Of a stretch of DNA of 64,000 nucleotides, positions 3,368 to 3,490 are shown one piece after another (the stretch's first letter is position 1; every line of letters starts with the position of its first letter). Origin of the DNA: Eledone cirrhosa (Eukaryota); NCBI GenBank assembly GCA_964016885.1, contig OZ024743.1:241242001-241306000 (forward strand), in the 5' to 3' direction. The notes beneath the pieces are model-generated. The model was not told the origin of the DNA. It did no database searches and saw nothing but the letters and a program-made list of their open reading frames with translations. A program made the position numbers and the translations under genes.

Positions 3368-3490
3368 TGGTTTTATAAATATAGTTTCCATTTATTTAAT
3401 ATTGTAAATATACTCCAAATATTTGTCGAGTGCTTTTATATCAGTTATAAATATTTACTAGTTGTAACCCAACAATTTAAATATAACTTT

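What the first reader, a model, noticed from the sequence alone, without database searches (positions are those of the whole stretch)
3406..3440. Shared (A/G)CTC...GAG(T/C) hairpin just outside the inverted-repeat boundary in unrelated HHR elements
Seen: downstream of the HHR, 5-20 nt past the point where the inverted duplication stops, a similar motif recurs: ACTC-caaatatttgtc-GAGTGC (3412-3433), ACTC-taaatacatgtc-GAGTGC (31789-31810), ACTC-cagtcctacaaactgta-GAGTGC (42037-42063), ACTC-ctatgtggaaaaagtacgtt-GAGTGC (minus, 52620-52649), ACTC-tactaccctaagtatt-GAGTAC (minus, ~31169-31195), and the covarying GCTC...GAGC (30936-30969; also 49138-49155). Apart from the first two, these families share no other visible similarity. 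Known: PLE pseudo-LTRs have unpaired 'tail' extensions. Inference: a conserved cis-element that positions the GIY-YIG nick or RT priming and so fixes the inversion boundary. I do not know of a description of it.
Basis: partly seen in the sequence, partly recalled or inferred. Interest (0 to 1): 0.8.

Follow-up and report, generated by a model that had tools for sequence, protein, structure and literature searches.

The report
Twin hairpins set Penelope retrotransposon ends
Hydra-type Penelope retrotransposons carry two copies of a small bulged hairpin, each a few bases beyond one of the two fixed points where their genomic copies end, and these hairpins likely tell the element's reverse transcriptase where to start copying.

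Summary
The elements with an ORF are Hydra-clade Penelope-like elements (PLEs). The motif is not a plain hairpin: it is (G/A)CUC, a variable covarying stem-loop, a 2-nt U(U/C/A) bulge, then GAG(C/U)RC. It occurs twice between the hammerhead and the AUG.

Copies end at two fixed points; 241 of 258 scored ends lie from 12 nt before a motif to its first base. In head-to-head insertions one arm is short and one long (40 of 42).

In independent metagenome elements, 46 of 52 leaders carry the motif (about 9 in controls). The first pair above the bulge is Watson-Crick in 65 of 67, with C-G/U-A swaps, and 12 of 17 ends sit just before a motif (3.1 expected).

Likely mechanism (inferred, 0.62): each hairpin docks an RT on sense RNA, priming starts on the AU-rich bases beside it, and the motif spacing is the PLE 'tail'. 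Strand and binding are untested. The tail and internal initiation are known; I found no description of this motif.

The parts
3412..3435 (+). Motif copy M1 of family A: ACTC / CAA-loop-TTG / TC bulge / GAGT-GCTT
3406..3492 (+). Tail of the long-end inverted arm; short end E1 at about 3405, long end E2 at about 3492 (M2 lies just beyond and is not copied)
   Evidence: M2 seen in read-through copies L004, L005, L007, L012, L018
3306..3347 (+). Minimal hammerhead core, inverted arm
503..720 (-). Short-end pLTR of the ORF-bearing arm (hammerhead 602-561), ends in (TA)n just before M1
2208..3224 (-). 5'-truncated Hydra-clade RT/EN frame (CxCX5C linker; frameshifted towards about 2030)
   Evidence: clade features from PMC8557442 section 11
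31789..31810 (+). M1 in a sister subfamily; short partner ends at 31419(-), long end about 31870
42037..42063 (+). M1 of family C; short partner ends at 39659(-), long end about 42119; Hydra ORF 39744-41102
52620..52657 (-). M1 of family D (no Hydra ORF hit); short partner ends at 54355(+), long end about 52588
   Evidence: M2 in read-through copy L239
31170..31195 (-). M1 of family E (mini inverted element 31124-31316)
30936..30971 (+). Motif with GC base pair and 6-bp upper stem; boundary not verified
49049..49095 (+). M1 of the 49k Hydra element (private C-to-T change here; GCTC in sisters); short end at 49046 and 51207
49138..49155 (+). M2 of the 49k element (C-UUCG-G cap), about 3 nt past the long end, about 20 nt before the ATG at 49176
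28840..28860 (+). M1 of another Hydra family (ORF-linked at C1:121800 of the sample)
45701..45721 (+). M2 of family f8, about 5 nt past that family's long end

Best explanation
Hydra-clade Penelope-like elements carry two copies of a conserved stem-bulge-stem, each 0-12 nt beyond one of the two fixed 3' ends of their genomic copies, and each hairpin likely acts on the sense RNA as the docking site from which reverse transcription starts internally. Shown: motif, covariation, doubling, position, one-short-one-long pairing. Inferred: (1) the element protein binds the GCUC/GAGC stem and U-H bulge; (2) the nicked (TA)n target anneals to the AU-rich bases just 5' of the stem and is extended; (3) the two ends of the cut target are primed from M1 and M2 of one RNA, possibly by two protein copies, and the two cDNAs join head to head, so the tail equals the M1-M2 spacing; (4) ORF-less families keep both motifs to borrow the protein.
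For: Ends: 241 of 258 within -12..+1 of a motif across 19 references; 12 of 17 in metagenome contigs, P about 2e-6, 11 clusters among the 12. Hammerhead-to-short-end distance ranges from 36 to about 195 nt and M1-M2 spacing from 76 to 166 nt, while end-to-motif stays within about 12. M2 was predicted (note) and then found in families D and f15. M2 is absent from long-ended copies yet predicts their end, so it acts on the template or donor. Covariation only at a 2-nt bulge register. Pairing: 40 of 42, and 9 of 10 prospective. The 5' flank is G-poor and AU-rich, and template bases there are overwritten by TA in some copies. In a Poseidon PLE in vitro, RT starts internally at two sites that bound the tail, needs RNA 3' of them, and both strands are cut and extended (PMC11167929).
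Against: No binding or priming data. Strand is unresolved: sense folds more stably in 23 of 69, antisense in 36, and wobble versus A-C evidence points both ways. The hairpins are weak: present in 34 of 69 local MFE folds, with pair probability 0.1-0.24 in a whole leader. 5 of 17 metagenome ends and 17 of 258 own-genome ends are elsewhere; 2 short+short and 1 long+long pairs exist. A non-Hydra PLE family has two fixed ends without this motif, so the motif is not the general PLE solution. The in vitro precedent is from another clade, where initiation is inside an AC-rich stem-loop. No read-through copy was seen for families C (14 loci) or E, so their M2 is unverified.
Confidence: 0.62

Rival explanations
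1. The hairpins are RNA-processing signals: the transcript is cut or terminated just 5' of each stem, and ordinary TPRT starts at the resulting 3' ends.
For: It gives the same geometry. PMC11167929 notes RNA-seq read ends at the two sites. The bulge fits the U-H (never G) pattern of hammerhead cleavage sites (rule recalled).
Against: The motif has no catalytic core, and 0 of 77 can pair with their own hammerhead's stem I strand. A cut at the bulge would fall 15-70 nt past the ends. Two ends per insertion would need two RNAs. Internal initiation is shown for Poseidon.
Confidence: 0.13
2. The template is antisense RNA and the hairpins are stop signals, like the telomerase template boundary element.
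For: Folding does not favour the sense strand. An antisense template was proposed for PLEs (PMC3846280). Reiterated short units occur at junctions.
Against: The opposite (5') ends are variably truncated, as expected for sense-template TPRT. Sense RNA works in vitro for Poseidon. A C-UUCG-G cap lies on the sense strand in one family.
Confidence: 0.1
3. The motif folds in single-stranded cDNA or donor DNA and positions GIY-YIG cuts that resolve a multimeric intermediate.
For: EN-mediated resolution is the stated guess for tails (PMC8557442). The D. virilis tail was needed for EN recognition (as cited in PMC11167929).
Against: Ends join (TA)n with microhomology and template overwriting. Inner lengths of 8-67 nt argue against a duplex site. 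A GIY-YIG nickase has no strand-transfer step (recalled).
Confidence: 0.09
4. The motif only regulates translation or packaging, and the ends are set by something else nearby, such as distance from the hammerhead.
For: M2 usually lies 19-39 nt before the ORF start. Hammerhead-to-M1 is 41-67 nt in metagenome elements.
Against: Ends follow the motif when hammerhead distance and tail length change several-fold. Units with no Hydra ORF hit keep both motifs.
Confidence: 0.06

Closest known systems
Hydra-clade PLEs (Craig et al. 2021, PMC8557442)
   Same: RW(K/R), DKT and CxCX5C motifs, hammerhead in pLTR, (TA)n targets, inverted 5'-truncated arm, optional tail.
   Different: No tail-linked RNA motif in the passages, section 11 or supplement parts 1, 2, 52, 53 that I read. 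Tails here are about 55-170 nt, not 30-40.
Poseidon PAc internal initiation (Frangieh et al. 2024, PMC11167929)
   Same: Two RT start sites bound the tail; RNA 3' of them is required; both target strands are extended.
   Different: PAc starts inside one AC-rich stem-loop within the ORF, and no repeated motif is reported. Here two copies of one conserved bulged stem lie in the 5' UTR, 3' of each end. Its supplementary figures were not readable.
Telomerase template boundary element (recalled)
   Same: A protein-bound helix a few nt from where a related RT acts.
   Different: It lies 5' of the template and sets the stop; this motif lies 3' of the inferred start. No homology tested.
Hepadnavirus epsilon and LINE/SINE 3' stem-loops (recalled)
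   Same: Short bulged stem-loop that recruits an RT.
   Different: Epsilon primes from its bulge; LINE stem-loops lie 5' of the start and are copied. This one is left uncopied and is doubled.

Membership tests
Hydra-clade PLE | C-terminal EN with CxCX5C linker and late CxxC/CxH | tested here: met
   2208-3224 and 39744-41102 frames, alignment A1 against PMC8557442 section 11
Hydra-clade PLE | RWK-like motif and DKT in place of DKG | tested here: met
   RWR/RWK and DKT in 49k, family A and two other N-termini
Hydra-clade PLE | Hammerhead in pLTR, insertion into (TA)n | tested here: met
   the core is altered in the 49k family
Hydra-clade PLE | Placement in an RT tree with reference clades | not tested
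   No tree built; Pfam gave no hit for these frames
Hydra-clade PLE | ORF in families D, E, f8, f12, f15, f16 | tested here: inconclusive
   No Hydra ORF hit in the read-through units tested; E has no read-through copy. Filed as probable non-autonomous dependants on the motif alone.
Known Rfam RNA family | Covariance-model match | tested here: not met
   No match over the motif among the 150 listed of 375 window rows or in 8 metagenome loci
Hammerhead stem III or substrate strand | Adjacent to the core, or able to form stem I with the element's own hammerhead | tested here: not met
   41-67 nt from GAAA; 0 of 77 pair
RT-binding / initiation element | Binds the element protein and sets the start | not testable with these tools
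   Positional and covariation evidence only

The most novel reading that the evidence does not exclude
A telomerase-related retrotransposon RT uses two copies of one ~25-nt RNA aptamer on a single transcript to prime both ends of a cut target at once. Aptamer spacing then dictates the long-unexplained PLE tail and head-to-head structure, and the aptamer alone licenses any RNA for insertion into (TA)n. This would be a start-defining mirror image of the telomerase boundary helix.
Probability: 0.45. Interest if true: 0.88.

Novelty: new variant of a known kind. Interest (0 to 1): 0.76.

Why it matters
How PLEs make their tails and inverted arms is an open question, and PLE RTs are the sister group of telomerase. 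A short motif conserved across many distinct elements, present once per end, gives exact mutations to test where and how the RT starts. It predicts element ends and flags ORF-less dependants for annotation. If sufficient, it would be a minimal tag for RNA-templated insertion.

Tried and rejected
Plain hairpin pattern: unspecific. Distance from the hammerhead as the ruler: rejected. Second hammerhead substrate: 0 of 77. Strand from folding energy or wobble counts: inconclusive.

Short-loop alignment A3 (17 rows) gave weak covariation, because its first upper pair is nearly invariant and 7 of 17 second pairs are broken.

Homodimer prediction for residues 1-480: no verdict. The monomer fold had not finished. 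No RNA holder listed. Viral contigs: no relatives. No read-through copy for family C (14 loci) or the non-Hydra family (22 loci). Earlier findings: none.

Pyatkov 2004 and Lunse 2016 were not held; PAc supplementary figures had no usable text. These could bear on the novelty claim.

Full report
1. Observation. All cited strings are present. At 3.4 kb the minus-strand pLTR stops in (TA)n at 503, while its inverted partner continues from 3406 through ACTC...GAGTGC to 3492. The same holds at 31.8, 42.0, 52.6 and 31.2 kb. The bare pattern occurs 30 times per strand in the window, mostly elsewhere, so a sharper definition was needed.

2. The elements. The frames at 2208-3224, 39744-41102 and 49164-50578 show RWR, DKT, CxCX5C and late CxxC/CxH, the diagnostics of Hydra-clade PLEs in PMC8557442 section 11. 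No tree was built. I sampled 1.6 Mb of the genome in eight blocks plus the window and found 364 hammerhead-anchored copies in 45 clusters. Several families end at two sharp points (family E: 36 and 116 nt after GAAA; family A: 56-60 and 145-160).

3. Real anatomy. Aligning long on short sisters shows 5'-(G/A)CUC, an upper stem with a free loop, a 2-nt 3' bulge U(U/C/A), then GAG(C/U) and usually RC. In 29 hand-picked instances from this genome the two inner lower pairs never vary, the outer pairs swap (G-C 15, A-U 11, U-A 1, 2 mismatches; C-G 26, U-A 2, 1 mismatch), and the inner segment is 8-67 nt (partners were chosen with pairing in the score). This descriptor hits 127 times against 11-15 in shuffles, or 248 against 109-140 without the RC flank. 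56 of the 127 lie within 330 nt of a catalogued hammerhead, which is 3.6% of the sequence; by eye most of the rest are tails of families my scan missed.

4. The second copy. Copies that run past the long end carry a second motif just beyond it: family A (5 of 30 loci), 49k, f17, f12, f8, f16, and after I noted the prediction D and f15. Over 19 references, 241 of 258 microsatellite-bounded ends lie at -12 to +1 of a motif, including 78 of 79 long ends (+1 is alignment overrun, loci for A, C, D and 49k were found by tail or N-terminal searches, and copies within a family are not independent). End-to-motif distance stays fixed while hammerhead-to-end (36 to about 195 nt) and M1-M2 spacing (76-166 nt) vary.

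5. Pairing. Of 67 head-to-head pairs, 42 could be classed: 39 short+long and 3 short+short, one of which is a long end with an internal deletion. Predicting the far end from the near arm worked in 9 of 10 testable cases (one seen only in part), with one long+long; 2 of 12 were out of range. A tail at one end only is known (PMC8557442 Fig. 2 legend). A non-Hydra family in the window does the same (10 short+long, 2 long+long in 22 loci) without this motif.

6. Independent test. An alignment of 35 of 120 listed homologues fetched 78 metagenome loci, 59 clusters at 75% nucleotide identity. Of 55 with an ORF start, 52 had enough flank: 46 match the descriptor fixed beforehand and 27 match at least twice; reverse strand 9, shuffles 8.65, ORF windows 36 of 329 (the matches in L266 and L285 are off-pattern). 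From 45 loci (one duplicate and six motif-less loci dropped), 67 distinct instances were picked by the GCTC and GAGC anchors alone. With a 2-nt bulge the next pair is Watson-Crick in 65 (C-G 46, U-A 19) and the second in 51; no other register exceeds 21; the bulge is UU 42, UC 15, UA 10; permutation p = 0.0002 for three pairs; spacing is 55-83 nt in 26 loci. RNAalifold on 10 equal-length instances returns the same fold. Of 50 loci given, 17 allowed the 3' end to be placed against the 5' copy on the same contig: 12 fall 0-12 nt before a motif, 3.1 expected. Among the six published Hydra consensi, read by eye, three show the motif clearly (Hydra-2_Amil, Hydra-2_Ajap, and twice in Hydra-1_Ajap), one shows a variant (Crog), and in two I found none. 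M1 and M2 differ slightly: the first upper base is U in 15 of 26 M1 but C in 25 of 26 M2.

7. Mechanism. M2 is missing from long-ended copies yet predicts their end, so it acts on the template or donor before copying. Covariation over variable loops points to a single-stranded fold; its weakness points to protein stabilisation. The bases just 5' of the stem are AU-rich and G-poor, able to pair with a (TA)n primer, and some copies show TA overwriting them. With the Poseidon result that RT starts internally at two tail-bounding sites, needs downstream RNA, and extends both strands (PMC11167929), the simplest reading is one RT docking site per end. Binding, strand and stoichiometry are inferred. 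Rivals are RNA processing (0.13), an antisense-template stop signal (0.10), endonuclease resolution (0.09) and a purely translational role (0.06).

8. Known or new. Read: PMC11167929 (parts 1-2 of 4, supplement table), PMC8557442 (passages, section 11, supplement parts 1, 2, 52, 53 of 59), PMC4209133 (part 1 of 4), bioRxiv 10.64898/2026.07.22.740005 (parts 1-3 of 5), and passages of PMC3846280, PMC5737381, PMC6765202 and PMC7229834. None of what I read describes the motif. Searches and Rfam found no description. Pyatkov 2004, Lunse 2016, subscription papers, Repbase notes and the PAc supplementary figures were not seen.

9. Verdict. A real, conserved, apparently undescribed doubled RNA-type motif that marks both ends of Hydra-clade PLE insertions. 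New variant of a known kind; interest 0.76.

Noticed in passing
window 18658-24630 and 61692-62971: Hammerhead-bearing ~500-nt tandem array (11 direct units plus an inverted copy; 3 more units later), like a non-LTR retrozyme; the motif descriptor was not seen at its ends.
   Followed up: partly
window 36045-39554: Non-Hydra PLE (CX4CXXC linker) with two fixed ends about 58 nt apart and mostly short+long pairing but no GCTC motif; a candidate for a different cis-signal.
   Followed up: partly
L202, L207, L220, L323 junctions: Reiterated short template units (AAAT, ATT, ATTT runs) between element end and target, as if the start was re-copied; insertion into pre-existing repeats is not excluded.
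   Followed up: no
window 12946-13052, 46533-46705, 48028-48217, 52714-52901: A short repeat inserted into other elements, including family D, with apparent target duplication.
   Followed up: no
window 48977-49000: The 49k family has an altered hammerhead core (CAGAAGA) in the sister copies seen, yet many copies have a 713-aa open frame, so cleavage may be dispensable.
   Followed up: no
window 1-207, 30457-30532: Near-perfect long palindromes (MITE-like or fold-back).
   Followed up: no
window 25974-27380 and 55301-61442: RTE-like and L1/Tx1-like LINE fragments (labels from recalled motifs, not from a call).
   Followed up: no
PMC8557442 File S2 versus the motif: The motif resembles a hammerhead with its core removed (stem I, U-H, stem III); two Saccoglossus Hydra hammerheads have ACTC/GCTC...GAGT as stem I. 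A possible evolutionary origin.
   Followed up: partly
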